The position numbers were made by a program, and so were the translations under genes. A stretch of DNA of 38,045 bases from a virus (lineage: Duplodnaviria; Heunggongvirae; Uroviricota; Caudoviricetes), in IMG/VR virus record IMGVR_UViG_2778261204_000006, positions 1 through 38,045 of that record; one strand, written 5' to 3'. Positions 3,294 through 38,045 of this stretch are shown here, in pieces; the stretch's first letter is position 1, and each line of letters opens with the position of its first letter. The notes beneath the pieces are model-generated. The model saw nothing but the letters and a program-made list of their open reading frames with translations. It searched no databases and was not told the origin of the DNA.

Positions 3294-3590
3294 TTACTCG
3301 TTCGTGTAAATCACGCCCAGTCGTGCAGCCAGACGTTCCAGTTTTTTCTGTTTGTGGAAGTCAATCAGCCGGTCCATCCCCTGAAGGCGCAACTGCTCTG
3401 TCATGATTTCCACATCTGCCAGCTCTGCCGCGAGGTCACTTTCGCTGCCCTGTCCGTTCAGGTTGCGGGCGGCACTGGCCGCCAGTTCAGCGGCCTCTTC
3501 TGTCAGTTTCAGGGCCTGTGCATCCGGCCCGAAACGCTGCAGGGCCAGACGATAGAGGTCGGTGCGGGTGAGTATGGTGTTCCGTGTCAT
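3294..3590 (-). CDS. hypothetical early protein
   Basis: 98 aa; GAGGG RBS; within the operon-like leftward gene string. Confidence 0.45.
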   Translation of the reverse strand: MTRNTILTRTDLYRLALQRFGPDAQALKLTEEAAELAASAARNLNGQGSESDLAAELADVEIMTEQLRLQGMDRLIDFHKQKKLERLAARLGVIYTNE

Positions 3591-3599
3591 GCCGCGCCC

Positions 3600-3872
3600 T
3601 CAGTGCTTCCGGTCGACGGTGATGTTCAGGTTGCCTTCTGCAGTGGTTTCCATCCGGTACGGCACCTCATGCTTTGCCGTGTGGGTGAGTGTGTTCACCA
3701 GTACCTGCAGGGCAGCCTCCTTTCCGTTGGTCGCCACAATGGCCTGAGCGGCCATGCTGATTAGCGCTGTCAGGACGTGCTTCACATCGGTGAGGTCGCG
3801 GCATTCACACTCGTTGACATAGTGTTCAACAAGGGTTCGGGTGCGCTGTCGTGCTTCCTGTGGGGTAATCAT
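3600..3872 (-). CDS. hypothetical early protein
   Basis: 90 aa; tightly packed with flanking genes. Confidence 0.45.
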   Translation of the reverse strand: MITPQEARQRTRTLVEHYVNECECRDLTDVKHVLTALISMAAQAIVATNGKEAALQVLVNTLTHTAKHEVPYRMETTAEGNLNITVDRKH

Positions 3873-4063
3873 TGCGCGTCCTCCCTGTCAGGGCGGGAGA
3901 ATTCCATGACGGGCACGTCTGCCGAAAAATGCTGGCTGCAGTACGGGCAGACCAGGGTGACGCGTACCGCAGGTATGTGGTACTTACCGGACATCACGGC
4001 GATGGCGCTGTGAAAACGCAGGGCTGTTATATCCCTCTCGCACTGAATACATTTAAATATCAT
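3869..4063 (-). CDS. small zinc-ribbon-like protein
   Basis: 64 aa with CxxC...CPYC cysteine pairs; GAGGAG RBS. Confidence 0.45.
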   Translation of the reverse strand: MIFKCIQCERDITALRFHSAIAVMSGKYHIPAVRVTLVCPYCSQHFSADVPVMEFSRPDREDAQ

Positions 4064-4160
4064 GATTTAATTCTCCTCTGTTTCCGGCGTGCAGAAGCCC
4101 ACGGCGCTGACGCCGGAATAAAAAAGAAAATGTTTTTATTAAATAATTAACGTGGTGTGT

Positions 4161-4691
4161 TTACTGCACATCCTGCTCAAAAGGAATTATTGAAAAATCC
4201 TCAATATCACTTTTTATGGTAATACCGGGAATATTTTTCACGGCGTCTTTTTCATTCAGGATGGCGTCTTTATTTATTTCCTCTTTTACACGAATAAATC
4301 GCTCAAGCCCCAGACGTCTCAGTAGCTCAATAACATTATCCGCCCCGCGAATGCTGACTGACGGTGGACGGTTTCTCCACTGTACCTCGCCGGTGGTGAG
4401 GTTAGCGAACTTCACCTTCCCGTTGCCGGTCAGTTCATCACGGTGTGCCTCACACCATGTCTGGATACCGGACTGCAGTTCTGACATGCGTTTTTTCAGG
4501 CTCTCGGTGAGCGGGGCATAACGTGCGGTGATATCGCCAATGGCGTCATTCATTTCTGTTTCAGCCCTGACCAGTTCACGTTGTGCGTCACCGAGCAGTC
4601 TGATTCCCTCAATGACCTCTTCGCGTGTTCCTGGTACCCAGAGTGCCGCTGCGGACTTGATACGTTTTGCCCCTTTTGTACTTTTTGCCAT
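4161..4691 (-). CDS. Gam-like host-nuclease inhibitor protein
   Basis: About 176 aa from ATG 4691; size and position downstream of the B-like ATPase match Mu Gam; family assignment from recalled similarity. Confidence 0.6.
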   Translation of the reverse strand: MAKSTKGAKRIKSAAALWVPGTREEVIEGIRLLGDAQRELVRAETEMNDAIGDITARYAPLTESLKKRMSELQSGIQTWCEAHRDELTGNGKVKFANLTTGEVQWRNRPPSVSIRGADNVIELLRRLGLERFIRVKEEINKDAILNEKDAVKNIPGITIKSDIEDFSIIPFEQDVQ

Positions 4692-10266: not shown

Positions 10267-10297
10267 CCGGAAAGCATTGTGCTTTCCGGTTTTGTTT
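10267..10297 (+). terminator. rho-independent terminator downstream of the repressor-like gene
   Basis: CCGGAAAGC / GCTTTCCGG 9-bp stem, 5-nt loop, followed by TTTTGTTT. Confidence 0.5.
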
Positions 10298-11061
10298 CAG
10301 AAGTTGCAGATTACCAGTTCACGGCGCGGCGTGGGTTTCCCCGCCAGACTGTAGTTGATATTCACCGTCTGTATGTTCAGTTCAGTGAACACCCGACGCA
10401 TCTGCGGAATGTCGTTCACCGAGATAATCATCTTTCCTCTGATGCACCGGGCCAGTTCTGCGAGTAGTGTGTAGTTCTCTTCAGGAAAATCCACACCATA
10501 GCCTTCCGTCCCCAGATAGGGCGGATCACAGTAGAACAACGTGTGCGGACGGTCATAACGCTTAATGCACTGGTGCCAGTCCATGTGCTCTATCACCGTT
10601 CTGGAAAGCCGCAGGTGTGCCGCTGACAGTTCTTCTTCAATACGTAGCAGGTTGAAGCGTGGCGGAGATGTGGTGGATGTGCCGAAGCTGTGCTCTGCCA
10701 CCTTGCCACCAAATGCCTGCTTCTGGAGGTAGTAGAACCGTGCCGCACGCTGGATATCCGTCAGTGTTTCTTCCGGGGTGATCTGCAGCCATTTGTAGAT
10801 CTGCCGGCTAACCAGCGCCCATTTGAACTGGCGGATAAATTCTTCCAGGTGATGTTTTACCACCCGGTACAGATTCACCAGTTCACCATTGATATCGTTA
10901 ATGACTTCGAGCTTGCCGGGAGTCTTGAGAAAATAGAGCGCAGCTGCGCCGCAGAACGGCTCCACATAACATTCATGCGCAGGAAACAGCGGCAGGATGT
11001 GTTTTGCCAGGCGGCGTTTGCCACCAATCCATGGAACGATGGGTAATGTCTGCGTTTTCAT
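10297..11061 (-). CDS. Dam-like N6-adenine DNA methyltransferase
   Basis: 254 aa; DPPY catalytic motif (LFYCDPPYLG) and SAM-binding FxGxG-like motif (EPFCGAAA). Confidence 0.85.
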   Translation of the reverse strand: MKTQTLPIVPWIGGKRRLAKHILPLFPAHECYVEPFCGAAALYFLKTPGKLEVINDINGELVNLYRVVKHHLEEFIRQFKWALVSRQIYKWLQITPEETLTDIQRAARFYYLQKQAFGGKVAEHSFGTSTTSPPRFNLLRIEEELSAAHLRLSRTVIEHMDWHQCIKRYDRPHTLFYCDPPYLGTEGYGVDFPEENYTLLAELARCIRGKMIISVNDIPQMRRVFTELNIQTVNINYSLAGKPTPRRELVICNF

Positions 11062-18629: not shown

Positions 18630-19431
18630 ACTGGCGTACTGCATGACGCTTCCCCCGAAGCGGGCAATCAGCTACCTGAAGTCCAAAGGGTATCAGATTA
18701 CCTGGGACTGGGAAGAAATGTGGCAGGAAGCCCATGCCCGCGCCTTTACCGTCGCTAAAGTGACCCGCCTGGATATCCTGGAAGATATTCGCGGGGCACT
18801 GCAGCAGGCTGTCGATGAAGGAAAAACCGATCGCTGGTTCCGGCAGGAGCTGGAGCCGGCGCTGAAGCGCAGGGGATGGTGGGGACCGCGTGACACGACT
18901 GACCCGGTAACGGGTGAGCCGGTCACCATTCAGCAGGGCAGTCCGTGGCGGCTCGATACCATCTTTCGCACCAATATGTCCGTACTCTACAGCGCCGGAC
19001 GGTGGGCGGAACAGATGGAAAACGTCGATGACAGGCCGTACTGGATGTATACCGGCATCAACGACAGCCATACCCGCAGGAGCCATCTGGCGCTGCATGG
19101 TCTGGTGCTGCGCTGGGATGACCCGTTCTGGCAGGCATTTTACCCGCCGAACGGCTGGCGCTGCCGCTGTAGTGTGATTGCCCTGAGTGCGGCGGATGTA
19201 CGTGCCCGTGGCCTGAAGGTTATCAGCTCCGGCTCTGCCATGGGCCAGGAACTGAAACTGGTCTCAGAGAAAACCGGCGAAATGCGGAACGTGGCCACCT
19301 TTAATACCGGTACCACGAAGGTGACCACCGACGTCGGCTGGTCTTATGCACCGGGGGCAGCATACCGTCCCGACCTTGCCCGCTATCAGGGTACGCTTCA
19401 GCCACTGGCACAGCAGGAACTGAGAGGATAA
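18610..19431 (+). CDS. head morphogenesis protein (Mu F-like)
   Basis: Motif HGLVLRWDDPFWQAFYPPNGWRCRCSV characteristic of the Phage_Mu_F domain. Confidence 0.8.
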   Translation: MSVTTAELAYCMTLPPKRAISYLKSKGYQITWDWEEMWQEAHARAFTVAKVTRLDILEDIRGALQQAVDEGKTDRWFRQELEPALKRRGWWGPRDTTDPVTGEPVTIQQGSPWRLDTIFRTNMSVLYSAGRWAEQMENVDDRPYWMYTGINDSHTRRSHLALHGLVLRWDDPFWQAFYPPNGWRCRCSVIALSAADVRARGLKVISSGSAMGQELKLVSEKTGEMRNVATFNTGTTKVTTDVGWSYAPGAAYRPDLARYQGTLQPLAQQELRG

Positions 19432-19994
19432 TGATGGCTTCCGATAAACTGGTCGATATCACCATTAACGATAAATCCCTGCGCCGGAGTCTCCGCGCAC
19501 TGGAGCTCTCTGCCACAGATCTGGAACCCGCGATGCGCAAAATTGCCGGTGCATTGTTAACAGAAACCCAGATAAATTTTATGGATGAAGGGCGTCCCTC
19601 CTGGCTCCCTTCGCTGGCAGCAGAAGAACGTGATGGCCAGACACTGCAGGATACAGGACGTCTGATGAGCTCTGTCACCACACATTATGACCACCATCAG
19701 GCTGTCATCGGGACTAATGTGATCTATGCGGCCATCCATCAGTTCGGAGGGGAGATTAAACATAAAGAGCGACAGCAGAGTATCCACTGGCGTCAGGACA
19801 AAGAGGGAAACCTGCGTATGTCTGAACGAAGCCGGGCACATATCTCGCAGTCGTATCATGTGGACGCGTACACATCAGAAATGCCCGCCCGTCCTTTCCT
19901 GCCACTGAAAAGCGATGGGGGTTTGCAGCCAGAGGCTGAGCGTGCCGTACTGGACACGATTGTCCGCCATCTTGAATCAGCGGCCCGTCGCTGA
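19431..19994 (+). CDS. virion morphogenesis protein (Mu G-like)
   Basis: 187 aa; position after the F-like gene; TAATG coupling. Confidence 0.55.
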   Translation: MMASDKLVDITINDKSLRRSLRALELSATDLEPAMRKIAGALLTETQINFMDEGRPSWLPSLAAEERDGQTLQDTGRLMSSVTTHYDHHQAVIGTNVIYAAIHQFGGEIKHKERQQSIHWRQDKEGNLRMSERSRAHISQSYHVDAYTSEMPARPFLPLKSDGGLQPEAERAVLDTIVRHLESAARR

Positions 19995-20040
19995 GTTTTC
20001 TCTCTTCAGGCGGGTGATTTATCATTGCCAGCGAATGAGG

Positions 20041-20082
20041 GGCTGTATTACCTTTATAAAGGCTTTACAGCCTCTGTTTTAT
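20041..20082 (+). terminator. rho-independent terminator between the head-morphogenesis and protease/capsid units
   Basis: GGCTGTA...TACAGCC outer stem with inner CCTTTATAAAGG palindrome, followed by TCTGTTTTAT. Confidence 0.45.
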
Positions 20083-20144
20083 AACCGCCCCCGGTTCACC
20101 ACATTGCTTTCCCTGTCCTTCTCCCCTGATGTTTTCTAAAGCAG

Positions 20145-20184
20145 ATTAAAATCGCCGGGCCTGCATTTCTCACAAACTGTCTCC
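20145..20184 (+). promoter_or_regulatory. candidate activator-dependent late promoter (head operon)
   Basis: ATTAAAATCG at 20145 and CTGTCTCC at 20177, 32 bp apart. Confidence 0.4.
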
Positions 20185-20208
20185 GACAACATAACGCGGG
20201 ACAGCAAA

Positions 20209-21324
20209 ATGTCAGCCATTCACATTTTTAAAGCCGGTACCCATACCGATATGCACGGCAAAAAACTGCCGTTCACGCCAGACGATCTTGCCGCCTGCGT
20301 GAAAGCCTATGACCCGTCCGTCCATGAAGCACCACTCGTGATTGGTCATCCCAGAACGGAAGACCCGGCGTGGGGCTGGGTGAAAGCCCTGTCGCTCAGC
20401 GGTGTCGATCTGATGGCAGAGCCTGCCCAGCTGGACCCGCAGTTTGCTGAGATGGTCACCGACGGACGATTCAAAAAAGTGTCCGCCTCTTTCTACCTCC
20501 CGGATTCACCGTCCAATCCGAAGCCCGGCGTGCTCTACCTTCGCCATGTGGGCTTTCTCGGGGCACAGCCACCTTCCGTCAAAGGGCTGAAACAGGTGTC
20601 CTTCAGTGAGCAGGAAGAAGGTGTGGTGGAGTTCGCCGACTGGCAGGCCATCACGAATGCCTCCCTGTGGGGAAAGCTGCGCGATTTTCTGATCGCCCGC
20701 TTCAGTCTGGACGAGGCAGAAAAAGTCCTGCCGGAATGGCAGCTCAACAGTCTGCGCGAAGAGGCGTACCGCGACACACTGTCGCAGGATGCAGCAGGTG
20801 CACAATTCAGTGAGACAGGCCCGGGGCCGTCTTCCGCAAGTAACGAGGAATCATCGATGACAAAAGAAGAGATTGAAGCCCTTCAGGAGGAGAACCGCCG
20901 CCTGAAGCAGCAGGCTGCTGATCGCGATGCGCGTGATGCACAGGTCAGACAGGAGCAACTGCATAAGGACAATGTGGCCTTTGCAGAAAAACTGGTCGCA
21001 GAGGGGCGTCTGGCTCCCCGCGCCTCCTCCGTGGTGGTTGCCCTGCTGGATGCCGTCGCCGGTGGCGACAAGCCGGTGGAGTTTGCTGAGGGGGAAAGCA
21101 GCACGCCGCTGGCCACCGCCTTCCGTTCATTGCTCTCCGACGGGGAGCCGGTGATGAATTTCGCCGAACAGGCCACAAAGGAGCGTGTCGGCGACACGGT
21201 GAAGGTGGATGTGGCGGAGTTTGCGGAAGCCGATCCTGAGCGTCTGGCCCTGCATCAGAAAGCAGTGGCCCTGTCCAAAAAAGAAGACATCAGCTATGAG
21301 GCTGCTGTCGCACGCTGCCTGTAA
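20209..21324 (+). CDS. prohead protease/scaffold protein (Mu I-like)
   Basis: 371 aa; coiled-coil C-terminal half (EEIEALQEENRRLKQQ); immediately upstream of major capsid. Confidence 0.6.
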   Translation: MSAIHIFKAGTHTDMHGKKLPFTPDDLAACVKAYDPSVHEAPLVIGHPRTEDPAWGWVKALSLSGVDLMAEPAQLDPQFAEMVTDGRFKKVSASFYLPDSPSNPKPGVLYLRHVGFLGAQPPSVKGLKQVSFSEQEEGVVEFADWQAITNASLWGKLRDFLIARFSLDEAEKVLPEWQLNSLREEAYRDTLSQDAAGAQFSETGPGPSSASNEESSMTKEEIEALQEENRRLKQQAADRDARDAQVRQEQLHKDNVAFAEKLVAEGRLAPRASSVVVALLDAVAGGDKPVEFAEGESSTPLATAFRSLLSDGEPVMNFAEQATKERVGDTVKVDVAEFAEADPERLALHQKAVALSKKEDISYEAAVARCL

Positions 21325-31913: not shown

Positions 31914-32261
31914 ATGAAAACAACCTCAGTATTCTGGCAACCGGCTCTGCAGGCCCCCGGCGAAATCGTCCGGGGGCTGGATGATATCTGGCAGGCTATT
32001 CAAATCATCCTGCGTACTCCTCGCGGCAGCGACCCGCATCGCCCGGAGTTCGGCAGCAATCTGCACCTTTATATCGACTGGCCTATTGACCGGGCCATTC
32101 CGCATGTGGTGCGCGAATCCGTCGATGCCATCCGCAGCTGGGAGCCTCGCTGCCAGCTTATGTCGGTCAAACCCGCCGTCGACGGCGAACATCTTACGCT
32201 CCGGGTGAGCTGGAAAGGCTCTGACGGACAGCCCCGGACTCAGGAGTTGCTATGGCGCTGA
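31914..32261 (+). CDS. baseplate protein W (GPW/gp25 family)
   Basis: 115 aa; IILRTPRGSDPHRPEFGSNLHLYIDWP motif. Confidence 0.8.
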   Translation: MKTTSVFWQPALQAPGEIVRGLDDIWQAIQIILRTPRGSDPHRPEFGSNLHLYIDWPIDRAIPHVVRESVDAIRSWEPRCQLMSVKPAVDGEHLTLRVSWKGSDGQPRTQELLWR

Positions 32262-33355
32262 CAGAACCCGATTTTATTGAACGTGATGCCGACAAAATCA
32301 CGGCTGAAATGATTGCTCAGTACGAAGCCGCAACCGGCAAGACGCTGTACCCCGCTCAGGCTGAGCGCCTGTTGATTGACCTGTGGGCATACCGCGAAAT
32401 GCTGGTCAGGGTAGCGGCGCAGGAAGCGGCCAAACAGAATCTGGTCGCCTTTGCCCGTGAGCCGATGATTGATTACCTCGGTGAACTGGTCGGTGTATAT
32501 CGCCTGGCCGCACAGCCTGCCACCACCACGCTCCAGTTCTCCGTGGATGAGGCACTGGCCATTGACGTGCTGATTCCGGCGGGTACCCGCGTCAGTGCTT
32601 CCGACAGCATCATTTTTGCCACCGACACGGACGTGGTGTTAAAGGCCGGATTGCTGCTGGTCAATACCACGGCCACCTGTACCGAGCCGGGGGCCGCTGG
32701 CAACGGCTGGCAGCCTGCACAGGTCAGTCAGTTGCTCGATGAAATTGATAACGTCGACCTGCAGGTGACCAATCTGGCGGCCAGTTCTGGCGGTTCAGAG
32801 CAGGAAGACAATGACAGGCTCCGCGAGCGTATCAAGCTGGCCCCGGAGTCATTCACCAACGCCGGAAGCCGTATGGCATACCGCTTTCATGCCATGCAGG
32901 CCCATCCCAACATCGTCGATGTTGCGGTGCTTTCCCCGGTTCCCGGCACCGTAGAACTGTATCCGCTGCTCAGCACCGGCCTGCCGGACGACAGCATCCT
33001 CACGCTGGTAGAGAGTTTCTGCTCGGACGAAAAAGTCAGGCCGCTCACTGATACCGTGCGGGCTAAAACACCTGTGCAGGTGGATTACGCCATTGAGGCC
33101 AACATCACTATCTATCGTGATCAGGATGCCAACTCGATAAAGGACAGCGCCAACAGCGCCATACAGAACTGGGTGGCGTCCCGTACCGCCACGCTGGGGC
33201 GCGATATTGTCCCCAGCCAGATTATCAGCGTTCTGTCCGTTACCGGGGTCTATCAGGTCGAACTGGTGACACCGGTGCTGAAGGTGGTGGCAGAAAACGA
33301 ATGGGCAAACTGTACGGCGATCACTCTTAACATGACCGGGGTGTCCGATGGCTGA
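32252..33355 (+). CDS. baseplate protein J
   Basis: 367 aa; follows W as in P2/Mu baseplate modules. Confidence 0.8.
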   Translation: MALTEPDFIERDADKITAEMIAQYEAATGKTLYPAQAERLLIDLWAYREMLVRVAAQEAAKQNLVAFAREPMIDYLGELVGVYRLAAQPATTTLQFSVDEALAIDVLIPAGTRVSASDSIIFATDTDVVLKAGLLLVNTTATCTEPGAAGNGWQPAQVSQLLDEIDNVDLQVTNLAASSGGSEQEDNDRLRERIKLAPESFTNAGSRMAYRFHAMQAHPNIVDVAVLSPVPGTVELYPLLSTGLPDDSILTLVESFCSDEKVRPLTDTVRAKTPVQVDYAIEANITIYRDQDANSIKDSANSAIQNWVASRTATLGRDIVPSQIISVLSVTGVYQVELVTPVLKVVAENEWANCTAITLNMTGVSDG

Positions 33356-33926
33356 GCCGTTACAACTTCCGCCACCGCTTGAGGGTGATATCAGCCTCAG
33401 AACGCTGGGAAGACTGGCCGGGCGGCTGGATAACATCGACCTGAGCGTACTGATGGTCTATCTCGTCGATATTGTCGACAGTTCCGCGCTGCCATGGCTG
33501 GGCGAGCAGTGCTCGCTGTTCGGCGATGGCTGGGAGTTGGCGGAGTCGGACGATGTACGCCGCATGCTTATCAAATCCGCTATCGAGCTGCACCGCTACA
33601 AAGGGACGCCGTGGTCAATCCGGGAAATCATCCGCCGTTTCGGCTTTGGCGAAGTGGATCTGATTGAAGGCACTGGCCAGATCGGCTACGACGGCAAACA
33701 CACTTACAACGGGCTTTTCGTCCATGGCGATGCAGAAGCCTGGGCGGTCTATCGCGTCATTCTTCAACAGCCCATCACTAACGATCAGGCCGCGTTGTTA
33801 CGCCAGACGCTCGCTGCTTTTGCTCCGGCCCGCTGCCATCTGGCGAGCCTTGAGTATCAGTCTGTCGCCATTCGCTACAACAACACCGTCAACTACGACG
33901 GCAGCTATAACCACGGGAGCAGTTAA
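33348..33926 (+). CDS. tail protein I-like (baseplate)
   Basis: 192 aa; follows J. Confidence 0.7.
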   Translation: MAEPLQLPPPLEGDISLRTLGRLAGRLDNIDLSVLMVYLVDIVDSSALPWLGEQCSLFGDGWELAESDDVRRMLIKSAIELHRYKGTPWSIREIIRRFGFGEVDLIEGTGQIGYDGKHTYNGLFVHGDAEAWAVYRVILQQPITNDQAALLRQTLAAFAPARCHLASLEYQSVAIRYNNTVNYDGSYNHGSS

Positions 33927-33928
33927 TT

Positions 33929-34771
33929 ATGGCAAACCTACCTGAAACCCCGCAGTGGGAAGACGGCATCTATCAGATTGAGGTCTCTGACCCCGTTCTG
34001 GGCGGGCCTGACGGGATTTCTAACCGCCAGGGTAAACAACTGGCCAGCCGCACGCTGTACCTGAAACAACAGGTTGAGAAAGGCGGTACAGACCTTGCGA
34101 AACACATCGCGGCAGCAGACCCGCATACACAGTACGCACCGAAAGCCAGCCCGACATTCACCGGCACGCCAACAGCGCCCACGCCTGCAAATAGCGATAA
34201 CAGCAAGAAGCTGGCGACGACGGAGTTTGTGGCCAAAGCACTTGCGGCGCTTGCAGGCAGCGCCCCTGAAACGCTGGATACGCTTAAAGAGCTGGCGGAT
34301 GCCCTCGGTAACGATCCGAATTTTGCGACCACGGTGCTTAACAAACTGGCGGAGAAGCTGGCCAAAGACCAGAACGGCGCAGATATTCCTGACCCGGCGC
34401 TCTTTGTCAAAAACCTTGGTTTAGGGGAATCGGCGAAAATGCCTGCTGCGACAGCATTGGCCAGCAGTGCTGGTAACATCGCTATTCCAGTATTAATTGG
34501 TGGAGTACAACGAACAGCACTGCTTCAGTGGAAGATGGTATCAGTGCCGCAATCAGCAGACGGTAACATGGTAGTGGTTGACGACTCATGGCCGGTTGCC
34601 TTTCCTAATGCTTGCCTTTCCATCAATCCTTCGCTGTCCAGTTCTTTGATTTACGCGACCAGTGGAGCACCTTTTGTCAGCGCAGCGATTGTTGACCGGG
34701 TCAAATTCAAAGCCGCTTGCGCATACACGAAATCTAATTCAACAGTAACAGTATGGGGAGTGGGATATTAA
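33929..34771 (+). CDS. tail fibre protein (constant N-terminus plus currently expressed variable C-terminus)
   Basis: 280 aa; crossover repeat lies in frame at codons KNLGLGE; C-terminal part inside invertible segment. Confidence 0.75.
   Translation: MANLPETPQWEDGIYQIEVSDPVLGGPDGISNRQGKQLASRTLYLKQQVEKGGTDLAKHIAAADPHTQYAPKASPTFTGTPTAPTPANSDNSKKLATTEFVAKALAALAGSAPETLDTLKELADALGNDPNFATTVLNKLAEKLAKDQNGADIPDPALFVKNLGLGESAKMPAATALASSAGNIAIPVLIGGVQRTALLQWKMVSVPQSADGNMVVVDDSWPVAFPNACLSINPSLSSSLIYATSGAPFVSAAIVDRVKFKAACAYTKSNSTVTVWGVGY
34408..34429. repeat. left inverted repeat (gix/hix-like recombination site) CAAAAACCTTGGTTTAGGGGAA
   Basis: 22-bp perfect match to the reverse complement of 36241..36262. 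Confidence 0.75.
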
Positions 34772-35214
34772 TGACAGACTATGTATTCAGCCCGGCTGAA
34801 AATGCTTTTTATCTTGTGGCACTGAAAGACGATTATTTATCTGCTGGCACATGGCCGTCAGACGGCATCAATATAGATGCTGAAGATGCGCTAGTTTTCA
34901 TGGGGGTGCCTCCCGAAGGTAAAGTGCGTGGCATTGGTGATGATGGGTTGCCTTGCTGGGCTGATCTTCCGCCACCTACGCATGAAGAACAACTCGCAGC
35001 GGCTGACTCAGAAAAGCAGTCGAGAATTGACCAGGCCAACGATTATATGAATGGTAAGCAGTGGCCTGGCAAAGCAGCAATCGGGCGACTGAAAGGTGAC
35101 GAACTGGCTCAGTATAATTTGTGGCTTGATTATTTGGATGCGCTGGAAGCGGTTGATACTGCCAGCGCGCCAAATATCAATTGGCCTACACCTCCGGTCG
35201 GGCAGGCCAGCTAA
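34771..35214 (+). CDS. tail fibre assembly protein (Tfa/U-like)
   Basis: About 147 aa from ATG 34771 (TAATG overlap with fibre stop); conserved Tfa C-terminal pattern. Confidence 0.75.
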   Translation: MTDYVFSPAENAFYLVALKDDYLSAGTWPSDGINIDAEDALVFMGVPPEGKVRGIGDDGLPCWADLPPPTHEEQLAAADSEKQSRIDQANDYMNGKQWPGKAAIGRLKGDELAQYNLWLDYLDALEAVDTASAPNINWPTPPVGQAS

Positions 35215-35788
35215 CATCAGGAGCCGTCGAAACATCGACGGCTTTAACTGCAGTTTTATAAGCCATCCACGATGACAGTTTCTTTTTGCTTTCTTCGCTG
35301 ATATCACCGAGCATCAGCTCTACCCGCCAATCCGAGGTAAGATCATCTACCTGAGCGAGGAGCGTTTGTCGGTGTTGTTCTGCATCAGCAATATCACCTT
35401 GATGTTTTGCAGCAGAATCCGTGACCCATTTATCTCCGTCCCATTTATCATACGGTGATGCTGGAGCTGTGGGGGTTGTACCTTCGGGATAATCTCCCAG
35501 TGCCGTCACTACAACCTGTTGCATTGTCTCAATGTTATAAACGGTTTGACCTCTGTGATCGGTTATATATTCCCATGATGAAAGGTCTGCTGTACGGCAA
35601 ATGGCAAAACCCTCATTATTTTCACCTGGAGCATCAATGCAAGAATTGGCAGGAATACCAACCCCCACGGCGAGATACTCAACGGTTGAAGACAGATATT
35701 CAAGCGTCTCACCATCGAAGTTATAGACGGTGATTTCCCCTGCAACTATAGCGATCATGTCCTGGTTTAATTCAGCTTTAGCCATCAT
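35186..35788 (-). CDS. alternative tail fibre assembly protein (Tfa', inverted orientation)
   Basis: 200 aa; C-terminus VDVSTAPDVSWPARPEV parallels the plus-strand Tfa C-terminus. Confidence 0.7.
   Translation of the reverse strand: MMAKAELNQDMIAIVAGEITVYNFDGETLEYLSSTVEYLAVGVGIPANSCIDAPGENNEGFAICRTADLSSWEYITDHRGQTVYNIETMQQVVVTALGDYPEGTTPTAPASPYDKWDGDKWVTDSAAKHQGDIADAEQHRQTLLAQVDDLTSDWRVELMLGDISEESKKKLSSWMAYKTAVKAVDVSTAPDVSWPARPEV
35223..35250 (+). terminator. hairpin terminator candidate at the convergence point inside the invertible segment
   Basis: GCCGTCG-aaacat-CGACGGC 7-bp stem followed by TTTAACTGCAGTTTTAT. Confidence 0.35.
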
Positions 35789-36262
35789 GCAGCCCTCACA
35801 ATGTAGTTAAATGCAATATTCCGCGCACGGGTTTCTGTCGCTGTTCGTACTGAGCGGGAGGCATCAAACGTCCAGTTTGCAGCACCATATCCACCATCAG
35901 TGGACGGAGTTAAACCTAAGGATAAAAGCATTCCATCCTGACGGAATGGGCCGGAGTAAACGGTATCCTTGAAAAGCTGAGTGCGACCAAACGAACCGAC
36001 AATGTTCTGGATGGAGTCTGACTGAGCAGACAATAGGCTACGCCCCGTATCAACTCCGCGCCCGTCATCCCATCCACGGATAAACTCCCCGCGTAGATCA
36101 GGCAGTCTGAGCGCCGGATAGGCCAGTGCCAGCTTAGGGTACTGGGAGGCGGTAAACGCAGCCCCATTGCATTTGAGCCACCCTGTTGGTGGTGTCGCTG
36201 ACGGCCATGGAATGGGCACGCCAACCGGCAATGCAGAGCCTTCCCCTAAACCAAGGTTTTTG
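35785..36262 (-). CDS. alternative tail fibre C-terminal segment (Sv'-like), promoterless until inversion
   Basis: Reading frame through the right repeat encodes KNLGLGE as in the plus-strand fibre, then a distinct C-terminal domain (PDLRGEFIRGWDDGRGVD). Confidence 0.65.
36241..36262. repeat. right inverted repeat (gix/hix-like recombination site)
   Basis: TTCCCCTAAACCAAGGTTTTTG, reverse complement of 34408..34429. Confidence 0.75.
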
Positions 36263-36328
36263 GAAAAGCGGTTACACATAGCGAAATCTGTAAAAATCCT
36301 CCCGCCGCGACATAGAGGAGGAGAATTG

Positions 36329-36910
36329 ATGGCCGTCATTGGTTATATCCGTGTATCAACAATCGACCAGAACAGCGATTTACAGCGTAATGCACTCACA
36401 AGCGCAAACTGTGACCGCATTTTTGAAGACCGCATGAGCGGAAAAGTTGCCAGCCGCCCCGGTCTGAAACGCGCTTTAAAGTGCGTTAATAGCGGAGACA
36501 CCCTGGTCGTGTGGAAACTGGACAGGCTGGGGCGCAGCGTTAAGAACCTGATCGCACTGATATCAGAGTTACATGAACGCGGTGCCCACTTCCGCTCTTT
36601 AACAGACAGTATTGATACCAGCACAGCCATGGGGCGTTTCTTTTTCCATGTGATGTCGGCACTGGCGGAGATGGAACGTGAACTGATCGTCGAACGAACA
36701 CTGGCCGGGCTGGCAGCGGCCAGAGCACAGGGACGCATAGGTGGAAGGCCCAACGCATTAAAGCCGCATGAGCAGGAACAGATTGGGCGGCTATTGGCTA
36801 AGGGGCATACCCGCCAGCAGCTGGCCATTATCTACGGGGTGGGGTTATCTACACTCTACCGGTATTTTCCGGTAGATGGTCAGAGGAAGGATGACGCGAT
36901 AGGATTGTAA
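36329..36910 (+). CDS. serine recombinase DNA invertase (Gin/Hin/Pin/Cin family)
   Basis: 193 aa; N-terminus YIRVSTIDQNSDLQRNAL with catalytic Ser; TLVVWKLDRLGRS and C-terminal HTH; GAGGAGGAG RBS. Confidence 0.9.
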   Translation: MAVIGYIRVSTIDQNSDLQRNALTSANCDRIFEDRMSGKVASRPGLKRALKCVNSGDTLVVWKLDRLGRSVKNLIALISELHERGAHFRSLTDSIDTSTAMGRFFFHVMSALAEMERELIVERTLAGLAAARAQGRIGGRPNALKPHEQEQIGRLLAKGHTRQQLAIIYGVGLSTLYRYFPVDGQRKDDAIGL

Positions 36911-36944
36911 TTCTTTTGCAAATATTGAAACGCCGCAGCGGTGC

Positions 36945-36987
36945 CATTTATCTCACGGAATGGGCGCATTTATCGCGCGGCGCATCA
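36945..36987. repeat. prophage right terminus with two CATTTATC motifs 22 bp apart (candidate transposase-binding sites)
   Basis: Motifs at 36945-36952 and 36967-36974; element ends ...GCGCATCA at about 36987. Confidence 0.5.
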
Positions 36988-38045
36988 GTCATCAGGCCGA
37001 GCGTAATCGTACCGGCAACAATTGACGGAAACAGCAAGAACAAACCGAAAACGTTATCGACCTGCAAATAGAGAATGCGGGCGATGTTGAAATACATATA
37101 GTGAAAATAGAGGCGAAAATAGTTTTTCCGTACGGCGCTAAACAGCTCGCGTACCGTAGGCGGCGTCGCGCGCGTGGCATCGTCTTCACCATAAACCAGC
37201 TCTTTACGGTAGGCGGCCTCTACTCGCTGGTTTTTAAACTCCAGCCCCGGCAGTTTGATCCCTACCACTGCCAGCAATCCGGTCCCCATCAGCGACCAGA
37301 CGATAGCGGCAATCACCAGACCATACGGAATGTGCCCGATAATCGGCAGCTCCGGCACATGCGCGGAGAGCGTTACCAGCACCGGCAGGAAGGCGATCAA
37401 CGTCATGATGGCGTTGATAAAACTGACGCCCATATTCTCCAGCGTTGAAGCAAAACGCATGGTGTCTTCCTGCACACGCTGTGCGGCACCTTCGATATGA
37501 CGCAGTTGTTGCCAGTTCGCCATGTAATATTCGTTCATCGCCGTACGCCAGCGGAACACATAGTGACTGACAAAGAAGTTGTTCAGTACACTGATCACCA
37601 CCGCGATCAGCGCAATCCCCAGAAAGACGCCCACTTCGCGGTAAAATTGTTCGATAGTGACTTTATGCGGCGAACTTAGCGCGGTTTGAATCAGATCATA
37701 GAACGGTGCATACCAGGCGTTGACGGCGACCCCGACTTCCACCAAAAACCAGGTGACGAAGATGATCAGTGCAGTACCGAGTATTGACCAGTATTGCCAA
37801 CGGTGCGGGCTGTAGATAAACCAGAAAAATGCAAAAAGTCCTACGCAAACAATGTAGTAAGCGTAAAAAATCAGGAAATCCAACGACCAGAAACGCGCGG
37901 CGCTAATCGGGATCTGCCCGGAAGCGCCGGTGATACGCGCCACCCAGTCACCCCCACCGGCTTGCCAGAAGATAACGGCAATCAATGCCCAAACAAAGGC
38001 CGAGAGAAAAAACGCTCCCGGCTTTGGGAAAAAAGACTTAAACAT
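36948..38045 (-). pseudogene. sbmA: sbmA (peptide antibiotic transporter) truncated by prophage insertion; last 13 codons are phage-derived
   Basis: Translation matches recalled SbmA from [10 protein letters not shown] through about residue 352 (…TITLGLMT), then diverges to [12 protein letters not shown] and stops at 36948. Confidence 0.7.

What the first reader, a model, noticed from the sequence alone, without database searches (positions are those of the whole stretch)
34408..36262. Invertible tail-fibre segment with gix/hix-like 22-bp inverted repeats and in-frame alternative C-terminus
Perfect 22-bp inverted repeats (CAAAAACCTTGGTTTAGGGGAA) lie at 34408..34429 and 36241..36262. The left repeat is inside the fibre gene and is read as KNLGLGE; the same frame runs through the right repeat on the opposite strand into a different C-terminal domain, so inversion swaps the receptor-binding domain and its chaperone. 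The repeat resembles the recalled gix consensus, and a Gin/Pin-family invertase starts 67 bp beyond the right repeat. The segment (about 1.86 kb) is shorter than the Mu G segment.
Basis: partly seen in the sequence, partly recalled or inferred. Interest (0 to 1): 0.5.

Follow-up and report, generated by a model that had tools for sequence, protein, structure and literature searches.

The report
Invertible phage tail-fibre host-range switch
This is an intact copy of a textbook phage device: a Hin/Gin-type enzyme flips a 1.8-kb DNA segment so that the tail fibre gets one of two receptor-binding tips. It sits in a Mu-like prophage of E. coli and is an ordinary new member of a well-known family.

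Summary
Perfect 22-bp inverted repeats lie at 34408-34429 and 36241-36262. They are the cores of two 26-bp hix/gix-type recombination sites, 34404-34429 and 36241-36266, with central dinucleotides TT and AA.

The left site lies inside the tail-fibre gene. In-silico inversion of the 1839 bp between the site centres gives an in-frame 318-aa fibre with a different tip.
- Current tip: gp53-like.
- Alternative tip: tail-collar type.
- Each tip is followed by its own fibre-assembly chaperone.

An intact 193-aa serine invertase (36329-36910) follows. It is about 82-85% identical to Salmonella Hin and 67-71% to Mu Gin. Its 5' part carries a Hin-like enhancer with two Fis-type sites 48 bp apart. Synonymous-codon constraint across 65 homologues supports this enhancer.

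For four of six related prophage lineages, both the current and the predicted flipped fibre proteins exist, residue for residue, in public assemblies. One sister prophage occurs at the same chromosomal site in two E. coli strains with the segment inverted.

The flipped form of this exact copy was not found, but its lineage is known from only about three contigs.

This is a new member of a known kind and of low novelty.

The parts
33929..34771 (+). Tail-fibre gene in its present state (280 aa). The constant part Sc is residues 1-167; the variable part Sv follows.
   Evidence: ORF. PHROG tail fibre phrog_3100, 2e-66 over residues 1-184. The exact protein is RefSeq WP_096969757.1, E. coli. It follows the Baseplate_J and Tail_P2_I genes.
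34404..34429 (.). Left 26-bp recombination site, TTGTCAAAAACC-TT-GGTTTAGGGGAA. The crossover dinucleotide TT is at 34416-34417.
   Evidence: 21/26 identical to Mu gixL and to Salmonella hixL. Homology with relatives ends exactly at 34429.
34430..34771 (+). Sv, the currently expressed variable C-terminus (113 aa, gp53-like tip).
   Evidence: Pfam Gp53-like_C, E 3e-4, below the curated cut-off. PHROG virion structural protein phrog_2557, 2e-20, covers residues 73-275. The gp53-like tip cassette (Sv plus U; match 34411-35218) is 88.8% identical at DNA level to the silent cassette of P2-like phage 500465-1.
34771..35214 (+). U, the fibre-assembly chaperone of the Sv cassette (147 aa). Its start overlaps the fibre stop (TAATG).
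   Evidence: Pfam Caudo_TAP 3e-29, full profile coverage. phrog_188, 4e-57.
35186..35214 (.). 29-bp antiparallel overlap of the 3' ends of the two chaperone genes. It is the junction between the two cassette modules.
   Evidence: ORF coordinates. The same 29-bp overlap is present in L003, L004, L089-L092 and phage 500465-1. Homology with foreign cassettes ends at 35175-35227.
35186..35788 (-). U', the chaperone of the silent cassette (200 aa). Its start overlaps the Sv' stop (ATGA).
   Evidence: Pfam Caudo_TAP 5e-30. phrog_105, 9e-78. 53% identical to e14 TfaE, which is also 200 aa.
35785..36240 (-). Sv', the silent alternative C-terminus (151 aa, tail-collar type). It lacks a start codon of its own and is expressed only after inversion.
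   Evidence: Pfam Collar 6e-15. phrog_523, 2e-72. PDB short tail fibre 9cuy 3e-27 and T4 gp37 2xgf 1.5e-17. The same cassette sits in the expressed position in L003 at 91% identity.
36241..36266 (.). Right 26-bp recombination site, TTCCCCTAAACC-AA-GGTTTTTGGAAA. The crossover dinucleotide AA is at 36253-36254.
   Evidence: Its centre is 75 bp upstream of the invertase ATG; in genuine hin the figure is 74 bp and in many relatives 74-76 bp. Homology with relatives resumes at 36240.
36329..36910 (+). DNA invertase (193 aa) of the Hin/Gin/Cin/Pin subclass of serine recombinases. The ribosome-binding site GAGGAGGAG lies upstream.
   Evidence: Pfam Resolvase 7e-47 plus HTH_7 1e-15. Gin structure 4m6f, 5e-80. 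159/193 residues identical to Hin of the S. diarizonae hin-fljB-fljA locus. R8, S10, R43, K47, R48, K51, H107, Q151, R154 and L155 are present. 581/582 nt identical to the invertase gene of E. coli EcPF16.
36354..36368 (.). Proximal Fis-type site of the recombinational enhancer (TATCAACAATCGACC). It overlaps the catalytic Ser10 codon.
   Evidence: Aligns to hin TGTCAACAATTGACC. It fits the degenerate Fis consensus. Codons S10 and T11 are TCA and ACA in 70 and 69 of 73 homologues; synonymous observed/expected is 0.52 for codons 9-14, against a minimum of 0.79 elsewhere in the gene.
36402..36416 (.). Distal Fis-type site (GCGCAAACTGTGACC), 48 bp centre to centre from the proximal site. ATTTA and TAATG lie between the two, as in Hin.
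   Evidence: Aligns to hin GTGCAAATTGTGACC. It has one deviation, a C at the central W position. The sequence is identical in lineages known to flip. The AT-rich ATTTA and TAATG elements are described for Hin in PMC3798978. Synonymous constraint is weak over codons 25-30 (0.93) but clear at codons 28-33 (0.64).
36911..36987 (.). Right end of the transposable prophage (...CATTTATCTCACGG...GCGCATTTATCGCGCGGCGCATCA). The switch is the last module of the phage genome.
   Evidence: Six relatives share this sequence and diverge into unrelated host DNA immediately after it.

Best explanation
This is a functional two-state tail-fibre switch of the Mu G / P1 C / e14 P type. It is carried at the right end of a Bcepmuvirus-like transposable prophage of E. 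coli.

Proposed mechanism (inferred by homology unless marked otherwise):
1. Dimers of the invertase (36329-36910) bind the two inverted 26-bp sites.
2. Host Fis binds the two enhancer sites inside the 5' part of the invertase gene. Its proximal Fis site is centred about 107 bp from the centre of the right recombination site.
3. On supercoiled DNA the three elements assemble into an invertasome.
4. Ser10 cuts both sites at the central TT/AA dinucleotide, one pair of subunits rotates 180 degrees, and the 1839-bp segment is religated in the opposite orientation.

Consequence for the fibre. Transcription and translation of the fibre start outside the segment, in the constant part (residues 1-167). 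The orientation therefore decides what is joined in frame to that part:
- Present state: the gp53-like tip plus chaperone U.
- Flipped state: the collar-type tip plus chaperone U'.
A lysogen population would then release virions with two different receptor specificities.

Shown here: the anatomy, the intact reading frames, the conserved catalytic and Fis-contact residues, nucleotide-level constraint on the enhancer, and inversion in sister prophages.

Inferred: that this copy flips, that Fis is required, and that the two tips give different host ranges.
For: - Sites. Two 26-bp sites with 12-2-12 architecture and reverse-complementary central dinucleotides; 20-21/26 identical to gix and hixL.
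- Frame. In-silico inversion gives an in-frame 318-aa fibre. Full-length contiguous homologues of that fibre reach 96% identity.
- Cassettes. Each has a tip domain plus a complete Caudo_TAP gene with overlapping stop and start codons.
- Invertase. Intact, 5e-80 to Gin structures, about 82-85% identical to genuine Hin. The catalytic residues and the Hin residues that contact Fis and the enhancer (K47, R48, K51, Q151, R154, L155) are all present.
- Enhancer. It aligns with hin, has 48-bp spacing, and shows strong synonymous-site constraint. Codons 9-14 give observed/expected 0.52 and codons 9-33 give 0.78; none of 5000 permutations reached either value.
- Natural inversion in the family. For 4 of 6 lineages tested, both the current and the predicted flipped fibre exist as exact sequences.
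- Direct flipped pair. E. coli GON1437 and GCA_034556195.1 carry the same prophage at the same insertion site, with the segment between the sites inverted at 99.7% identity. The inner half-site polymorphism travels with the segment.
- Shared machinery. Those lineages have identical enhancer sites and the same outer half of the right-hand recombination site as the window; their invertases are 96-98% identical to it.
- Experiment in the literature. Such prophage segments flip in growing E. coli cultures: e14 about 51:49, an EPEC 'Mu' prophage about 60:40 (PMC4272514).
Against: - The flipped fibre of this exact copy is not in the 15-billion-protein collection.
- Neither junction state of its gp53-like cassette occurs in the viral or metagenome collections. 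This lineage is known from only about three contigs, so these absences say little.
- The distal Fis-type site has a C at its central A/T position, and synonymous constraint over codons 25-30 is weak (0.93).
- No sigma-70 consensus promoter was found between the right site and the invertase ATG.
- The gp53-like assignment of the present tip is below Pfam's threshold.
- Host range, Fis dependence and expression were not and cannot be tested here.
Confidence: 0.88

Rival explanations
1. The segment is a frozen relic. All the parts look intact, but this copy no longer inverts at a meaningful rate, for example because of weak invertase expression or a weakened distal Fis site. The gp53-like tip would then be permanently expressed.
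For: - The flipped form of this copy was not found.
- There is no consensus promoter upstream of the invertase.
- The distal Fis-type site has a central C.
Against: - The invertase gene is 581/582 nt identical to that of another E. coli prophage, and the enhancer and the outer half of the right site are identical to those of lineages found in both orientations.
- There are no frameshifts or stop codons in the silent cassette. That cassette is 91% identical to an expressed copy elsewhere, similar to the 92.5% identity of the flanks, so it shows no relaxed decay.
- Invertases of this family are normally expressed weakly (general knowledge of Gin and Hin).
Confidence: 0.08
2. The repeats are only a conserved coding motif (KNLGLGE) shared by two fibre-gene fragments. 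Any inversion would occur by general homologous recombination, not by the neighbouring recombinase.
For: - The repeat lies in a 26-residue joint motif that is conserved even with Mu S, at 65% identity.
- The short core motif alone is not statistically unusual.
Against: - The right copy extends 4 bp beyond the 22-bp repeat into non-coding DNA, and it keeps the dyad 12-2-12 architecture of hix and gix.
- Its centre sits 74-76 bp from the invertase ATG in many relatives, including genuine hin.
- 22 bp is too short for efficient RecA-dependent inversion (general knowledge).
- In the flipped sister pair the exchange maps inside the 26-bp site.
Confidence: 0.02
3. The switch mainly serves the lysogen rather than the phage. 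Inversion in the prophage would change a host phenotype such as resistance to other phages, as recently reported for PinQ and PinR of cryptic prophages.
For: Papers report that Pin-type inversions in the cryptic prophages Qin and rac block T2 adsorption (PMC12529663 and bioRxiv 2025.03.28.646004; seen as titles and abstracts).
Against: - This prophage appears complete, with transposase, MuB-like protein, Mor and tail genes identified and a full-length set of late-region ORFs.
- It is 94% identical to the phage record PhiKM.
- The fibre genes sit at the end of a late structural operon, so no expression is expected in an uninduced lysogen (inference).
Confidence: 0.03

Closest known systems
e14 P segment with PinE (E. 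coli K-12 cryptic prophage)
   Same: - Same gene order: fibre constant part, StfP-type tip, TfaP, then convergent TfaE and StfE-type collar tip, then the invertase.
- Both chaperone pairs overlap at their 3' ends.
- Components are 47-56% identical, and PinE is 69% identical to this invertase.
- By the coordinates in Table S1 of PMC4272514 the e14 segment is 1839 bp, the same size as here.
   Different: - e14 is a defective lambdoid remnant and its stfE is a pseudogene. Here the prophage looks complete and both cassettes are intact.
- The fibre constant part and the phage backbone (transposable, Bcepmuvirus-like) are different.
Phage Mu G segment with Gin
   Same: - The switch is the last module at the right end of a transposable phage.
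- The crossover lies inside the fibre gene, within the same conserved joint motif: KLAKDxNGADIP..LFxxNLGLxE, 17/26 residues identical.
- Layout is Sv-U and U'-Sv' convergent, with the invertase just outside the right-hand site and the enhancer inside its 5' part.
   Different: - The Mu G segment is 3060 bp against 1839 bp here.
- Apart from the joint motif the fibre proteins are unrelated.
- Gin is only 67-71% identical to this invertase.
- Mu U and U' do not overlap.
- Mu has com and mom beyond gin; here the phage end follows 77 bp after the invertase stop.
- Here the early genes lie on the opposite strand to the late genes, the layout also annotated in the Bcepmuvirus record PhiKM; that Mu's early genes run in the same direction as its late genes is from memory.
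Salmonella Hin / hix / Fis-enhancer system (flagellar phase variation)
   Same: - It is the closest invertase: 82% global identity, 85% by tblastn, to Hin of the hin-fljB-fljA locus.
- The distance from site centre to ATG is almost the same (74 against 75 bp).
- The enhancer sequence is nearly identical, including ATTTA and TAATG.
- All Fis- and enhancer-contact residues are conserved.
   Different: - Hin inverts a roughly 1-kb segment that contains hin itself and a promoter, giving on/off control of fljBA.
- Here the invertase lies outside the segment, and the switch swaps coding C-termini rather than a promoter.
Invertible fibre segments of P2-like prophages (for example Escherichia phage 500465-1) and of other E. 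coli Bcepmuvirus-like prophages
   Same: - The gp53-like cassette is 88.8% identical at DNA level to the silent cassette of phage 500465-1, which lies next to that phage's invertase.
- At least 135 complete E. coli genomes match parts of the fibre-invertase region; those examined share the constant fibre part, sites and invertase at 90-98% identity.
   Different: - The pairing of cassettes differs in every relative examined. No complete E. coli genome carries this exact pair.
- Some P2-like loci have three sites and four states (PMC4272514). Here there are only two sites.

Membership tests
Fis/enhancer-dependent DNA invertases (Hin/Gin/Cin/Pin subclass of serine recombinases) | Small serine recombinase: an N-terminal catalytic domain with a Ser nucleophile, plus a C-terminal helix-turn-helix domain | tested here: met
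   Resolvase 7e-47 plus HTH_7 1e-15. Gin structures 5e-80 and the Hin DNA-binding domain 1.5e-17. Y6, R8, S10, R43 and the DRLGR motif are present.
Fis/enhancer-dependent DNA invertases (Hin/Gin/Cin/Pin subclass of serine recombinases) | Two 26-bp sites in inverted orientation, each made of two imperfect 12-bp half-sites around a 2-bp core, with matching core dinucleotides | tested here: met
   34404-34429 and 36241-36266. Cores are TT and AA, which are reverse complements. Half-site symmetry is 8-9 of 12. 20-21/26 identical to gix and hixL.
Fis/enhancer-dependent DNA invertases (Hin/Gin/Cin/Pin subclass of serine recombinases) | Recombinational enhancer with two Fis sites about 48 bp apart, in cis, in the 5' part of the invertase gene | tested here: met
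   36354-36368 and 36402-36416 align to the hin enhancer with 48-bp spacing. Synonymous constraint is 0.52 for codons 9-14 and 0.78 for codons 9-33, with 0 of 5000 permutations as low. The distal site deviates at one consensus position. The 15-bp core assignment rests on a recalled degenerate consensus. Fis binding itself was not tested.
Fis/enhancer-dependent DNA invertases (Hin/Gin/Cin/Pin subclass of serine recombinases) | Residues unique to the subclass that contact Fis and the enhancer (Hin K47, K/R48, K/R51; Q151, R154, L155) | tested here: met
   All six are present at the same numbering. Their roles are taken from PMC3798978.
Fis/enhancer-dependent DNA invertases (Hin/Gin/Cin/Pin subclass of serine recombinases) | The segment is found in both orientations | tested here: inconclusive
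   This copy: the flipped fibre is absent from the collection, and neither state is present in the viral or metagenome collections; the lineage is known from about three contigs. Sister lineages: both states were found in 4 of 6, and one flipped pair was verified at DNA level.
Fis/enhancer-dependent DNA invertases (Hin/Gin/Cin/Pin subclass of serine recombinases) | Dependence on host Fis and on negative supercoiling | not testable with these tools
   This needs biochemistry or a fis mutant.
Phage tail-fibre host-range switches (Mu G, P1 C, e14 P type) | Crossover inside the fibre gene, with a constant N-terminal part outside the segment and alternative in-frame C-termini inside it | tested here: met
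   Sc is residues 1-167. The alternatives are 113 aa and 151 aa, both in frame. Contiguous homologues of the flipped form reach 96% identity.
Phage tail-fibre host-range switches (Mu G, P1 C, e14 P type) | Each variable part is followed by its own fibre-assembly chaperone, and the two cassettes converge | tested here: met
   Caudo_TAP 3e-29 and 5e-30. The convergent genes overlap by 29 bp.
Phage tail-fibre host-range switches (Mu G, P1 C, e14 P type) | The two orientations give different receptor specificity or host range | not testable with these tools
   Only indirect support: the two tips belong to different families, Gp53-like_C (sub-threshold hit) and Collar.
Multi-site inversion systems (p15B Min, three-site P2-like loci) | More than two recombination sites, giving more than two arrangements | tested here: not met
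   Only two matches to the site core, allowing one mismatch, in the whole window. No further inverted-repeat partner was found.

The most novel reading that the evidence does not exclude
The segment may be built from two exchangeable half-modules. Each runs from a crossover site to a conserved 29-bp antiparallel overlap of the two chaperone genes. Homology with foreign cassettes stops exactly at these two junctions. One module is shared at 89% DNA identity with a P2-like phage. The two junctions could therefore act as universal splice points, one used by site-specific recombination and the other by homology. Unrelated prophages in one cell (Bcepmuvirus-like, P2-like, e14-like) would then draw on a common pool of receptor-binding cassettes, possibly through invertases acting in trans. 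The idea of horizontal exchange of fibre cassettes is old; a defined two-junction module grammar would be a modest refinement.
Probability: 0.3. Interest if true: 0.4.

Novelty: new member of a known kind. Interest (0 to 1): 0.22.

Why it matters
It matters little for basic understanding, because the mechanism has been textbook knowledge since Mu G/Gin and Hin.

Practical points:
- Annotation pipelines call the silent tip a separate short 'phage tail protein', and assemblies break or collapse at such segments. The PhiKM record appears to lack the region.
- The prophage's host range cannot be read from one assembly, because a second receptor-binding tip is encoded.
- The data give a clean natural example of inversion: the same prophage, at the same insertion site, in opposite orientations. 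They also show that public protein collections can be mined for both states.
- The prophage interrupts sbmA, which may alter the host's uptake of peptide antibiotics.

Tried and rejected
- Exact look-up of the flipped 318-aa fibre of this copy: not in the collection.
- Exact-pattern scans for the flipped right junction in viral and metagenome contigs: no hits.
- Control pattern that would match either orientation of the gp53-like cassette: also no hits. The absences are therefore uninformative.
- Search of complete E. coli genomes with the whole region: no genome holds this pair of cassettes in either orientation; the best coverage was 48%.
P0068 was used instead.
- Consensus promoter scan: nothing convincing upstream of the invertase.
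- Additional recombination sites, which would indicate a shufflon-like system: none.
- Attempt to obtain the left host junction, to prove a target-site duplication in sbmA: the contigs returned were other insertions of related prophages. They gave only the position of the left phage end.
- Relation of the variable parts to Mu Sv and Sv': none detectable.
- Structure prediction was judged unnecessary for the verdict and was not run.
Full report
**Observation**

The sequence CAAAAACCTTGGTTTAGGGGAA lies at 34408-34429 and its exact reverse complement at 36241-36262. The repeat finder extends the pair to 28 nt at 93% complementarity. A perfect 22-nt inverted pair within 5 kb is expected about 1e-5 times in a window of this size. 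The short core AAACCNNGGTTT occurs nowhere else in the window, even with one mismatch.

The left copy is read as KNLGLGE in the frame of the 280-aa ORF 33929-34771. The right copy is read as the same heptapeptide on the minus strand.

**Anatomy**

- Upstream are Baseplate_J (32252-33355) and Tail_P2_I (33348-33926), so 33929-34771 is the tail-fibre gene of a contractile tail.
- Each repeat belongs to a 26-bp site with the 12-2-12 layout of hix and gix:
  - left: TTGTCAAAAACC-TT-GGTTTAGGGGAA, 34404-34429;
  - right: TTCCCCTAAACC-AA-GGTTTTTGGAAA, 36241-36266.
- The two central dinucleotides are reverse complements, as inversion requires. The sites match Mu gixL/gixR and Salmonella hixL at 20-21 of 26 positions.
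- Between the sites lie two convergent cassettes:
  - Sv (34430-34771, 113 aa, gp53-like; the Pfam hit is below threshold) with chaperone U (34771-35214, Caudo_TAP 3e-29);
  - on the other strand, Sv' (36240-35785, 151 aa, Collar 6e-15) with chaperone U' (35788-35186, Caudo_TAP 5e-30).
- In both cassettes the chaperone start overlaps the fibre stop (TAATG, ATGA).
- The two chaperone genes overlap tail to tail by 29 bp.
- Inverting the 1839 bp between the central dinucleotides in silico joins residues 1-167 in frame to Sv', giving a 318-aa fibre.

**Invertase and enhancer**

ORF 36329-36910 encodes a 193-aa protein with Resolvase plus HTH_7 domains.

| Comparison | Result |
|---|---|
| Gin crystal structures | E = 5e-80 |
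| Gin identity | 67-71% |
| Hin identity | 82% global, 85% by tblastn |
| e14 PinE identity | 69% |

The Hin used here was identified by its position in a hin-fljB-fljA locus of S. enterica subsp. diarizonae.

The catalytic residues R8, S10 and R43 are present. So are the six residues that McLean et al. (PMC3798978) show to be specific to Fis/enhancer-dependent invertases: K47, R48, K51, Q151, R154 and L155.

The 5' part of the gene aligns base for base with the hin enhancer:
- a proximal Fis-type site, TATCAACAATCGACC (36354-36368);
- a distal site, GCGCAAACTGTGACC (36402-36416), 48 bp away;
- between them the ATTTA and TAATG tracts that Hin helix B contacts.

The assignment of the 15-bp cores uses a degenerate Fis consensus recalled from the literature.

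Synonymous-codon variation gives an independent test. Across 65 non-redundant homologues it is depressed precisely in this region:

| Codons | Observed/expected | Comparison elsewhere in the gene |
|---|---|---|
| 9-14 | 0.52 | minimum 0.79 for any 6-codon window |
| 9-33 | 0.78 | minimum 0.98 for any 25-codon window |
| 25-30 (distal core) | 0.93 | weak constraint |
| 28-33 | 0.64 | clear constraint |

- None of 5000 column permutations was as low as the values for codons 9-14 or 9-33.
- Ser10 is TCA in 70 of 73 homologues and Thr11 is ACA in 69 of 73.
- The sequences are related, so these figures compare positions within one gene; they are not strict probabilities.

**Evidence that the family inverts**

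- Homology between the window and its relatives stops exactly at 34429 and resumes at 36240.
- In E. coli GCA_025666315.1 the window's Sv'-U' cassette sits in the expressed position at 91% identity. The flanks there are 92.5% identical.
- The predicted flipped fibre has full-length homologues of up to 96% identity.
- I inverted six related loci in silico and looked up the resulting proteins by exact sequence. For four of them (the L004, L089, L090 and phage KP12 lineages) both the current and the flipped fibre exist in public assemblies.
- E. coli GON1437 and GCA_034556195.1 carry the same prophage at the same insertion site.
  - The flanks, including host DNA, are 99.95% identical.
  - The DNA between the sites is reverse-complemented at 99.7% identity.
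  - A T/C polymorphism in the inner half-site travels with the segment, which places the exchange inside the 26-bp site.
- These lineages have the same enhancer sites and the same outer half of the right site as the window, with invertases 96-98% identical. The invertase gene of strain EcPF16 is 581/582 nt identical to the window's.
- Published sequencing of single-colony cultures shows such prophage segments flipping in E. coli: e14 about 51:49, and an EPEC 'Mu' prophage about 60:40 (PMC4272514).

**What is not shown**

- The flipped form of this very copy is absent from the protein collection.
- Neither orientation of its gp53-like cassette occurs in the viral or metagenome collections.
- The lineage is represented by about three contigs, one of them 100% identical over 10 kb. 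These absences therefore carry little weight.
- No consensus promoter precedes the invertase.
- Fis dependence and host range are inferences from homology.

**Context**

- The window is a Bcepmuvirus-like transposable prophage of E. coli.
  - It has a transposase, a MuB-like protein, Mor and GemA on the minus strand.
  - It is 94% identical to phage PhiKM over the first 24 kb.
- The switch is the last module. The phage ends 77 bp after the invertase stop, at 36987. Six relatives diverge into different host genes at that point.
- Here the host gene is sbmA, which is cut short: only Pfam profile positions 1-275 of 315 are present.

**Comparison with known systems**

- In layout and size the nearest classical system is the e14 P segment: StfP-TfaP-TfaE-StfE-PinE, colinear with the window's segment, 47-56% identical, and 1839 bp by the published coordinates.
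- In position and logic it matches Mu G/Gin. However, it shares only a 26-residue joint motif with Mu S and is 1.2 kb shorter.
- The invertase, the site spacing and the enhancer are closest to Hin.
- Segments of 1.3-2.1 kb with a site 74-76 bp upstream of the invertase are common among the 80 related loci fetched.
- At least 135 complete E. coli genomes match parts of the fibre-invertase region, and the relatives examined carry other cassette pairs.

**Verdict**

This is an intact, very probably active, two-state tail-fibre switch: a new member of a thoroughly known kind.

The only mildly new points are:
- the modular half-segment structure, bounded by the crossover site and the 29-bp chaperone overlap;
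- the sharing of one module with a P2-like phage.

Noticed in passing
window 1-36987 (right end at 36987); sbmA remnant 36948-38045 (-): The whole window is a Bcepmuvirus-like transposable (Mu-like) prophage of E. coli. It appears to be inserted into sbmA, which encodes an inner-membrane peptide-antibiotic transporter. The sbmA ORF loses roughly its last 40 Pfam profile positions and ends in phage-derived codons. Related prophages sit in other host genes (next to dsdA, in yahI, in glcF). The left phage end lies about 368 bp beyond the window start, so the target duplication could not be checked.
   Followed up: partly
window 35186-35214 (context 35175-35227): The two convergent tail-fibre-assembly genes overlap by exactly 29 bp, so both conserved W-P-x-x-P C-termini are encoded on opposite strands of one quasi-palindrome. 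The same 29-bp overlap occurs in every close relative examined and in P2-like phage 500465-1, but not in Mu. Homology with foreign cassettes ends here, which suggests a module junction.
   Followed up: partly
window 34411-35218 vs L098 (NC_049342) 3501-4308: The currently expressed gp53-like tip plus its chaperone is 88.8% identical at DNA level to the silent cassette of an unrelated P2-like phage (Wadgaonvirus 500465-1). The similarity starts at the core of the recombination site. This indicates cassette exchange between phage families.
   Followed up: partly
L099 (E. coli E2348/69, NC_011601.1, 2749478-2751398) and PMC4272514 Table S1: The EPEC 'Mu' prophage segment, reported to flip about 60:40, is followed only by a 93-bp annotated gene remnant in the position where the related loci carry the invertase gene; its identity was not checked. 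If that remnant is the invertase, inversion there would depend on an invertase from another prophage acting in trans.
   Followed up: no
L097 (Escherichia phage PhiKM, PQ738613.1) 19287-20544: The closest deposited phage genome is a partial, permuted record. Its fibre gene runs straight into the left-end genes, with no chaperones and no invertase. This is probably an assembly collapse at the invertible segment.
   Followed up: no
window 35219-35240: A 9-bp-stem hairpin, AGCCGTCGA-AACA-TCGACGGCT, followed by a T-rich stretch, lies just after the stop of chaperone U. It is embedded in the coding sequence of U' on the other strand. It may be a terminator for the expressed cassette, or simply a by-product of the conserved AVDVSTA motif.
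   Followed up: no
window 10297-11061 (-): A 254-aa ORF lies between the immunity/early region and the late genes. It looks like a DNA adenine methylase, and the homologous position in PhiKM is annotated as one. Unlike Mu, there is no com/mom module beyond the invertase.
   Followed up: no
L036-L070 (Xenorhabdus and Photorhabdus loci): About 40 invertase homologues (72-79% identical) from Xenorhabdus and Photorhabdus have no recognisable hix/gix-type core within 200 bp upstream of the gene. Their sites must be placed differently, or must differ in sequence.
   Followed up: no
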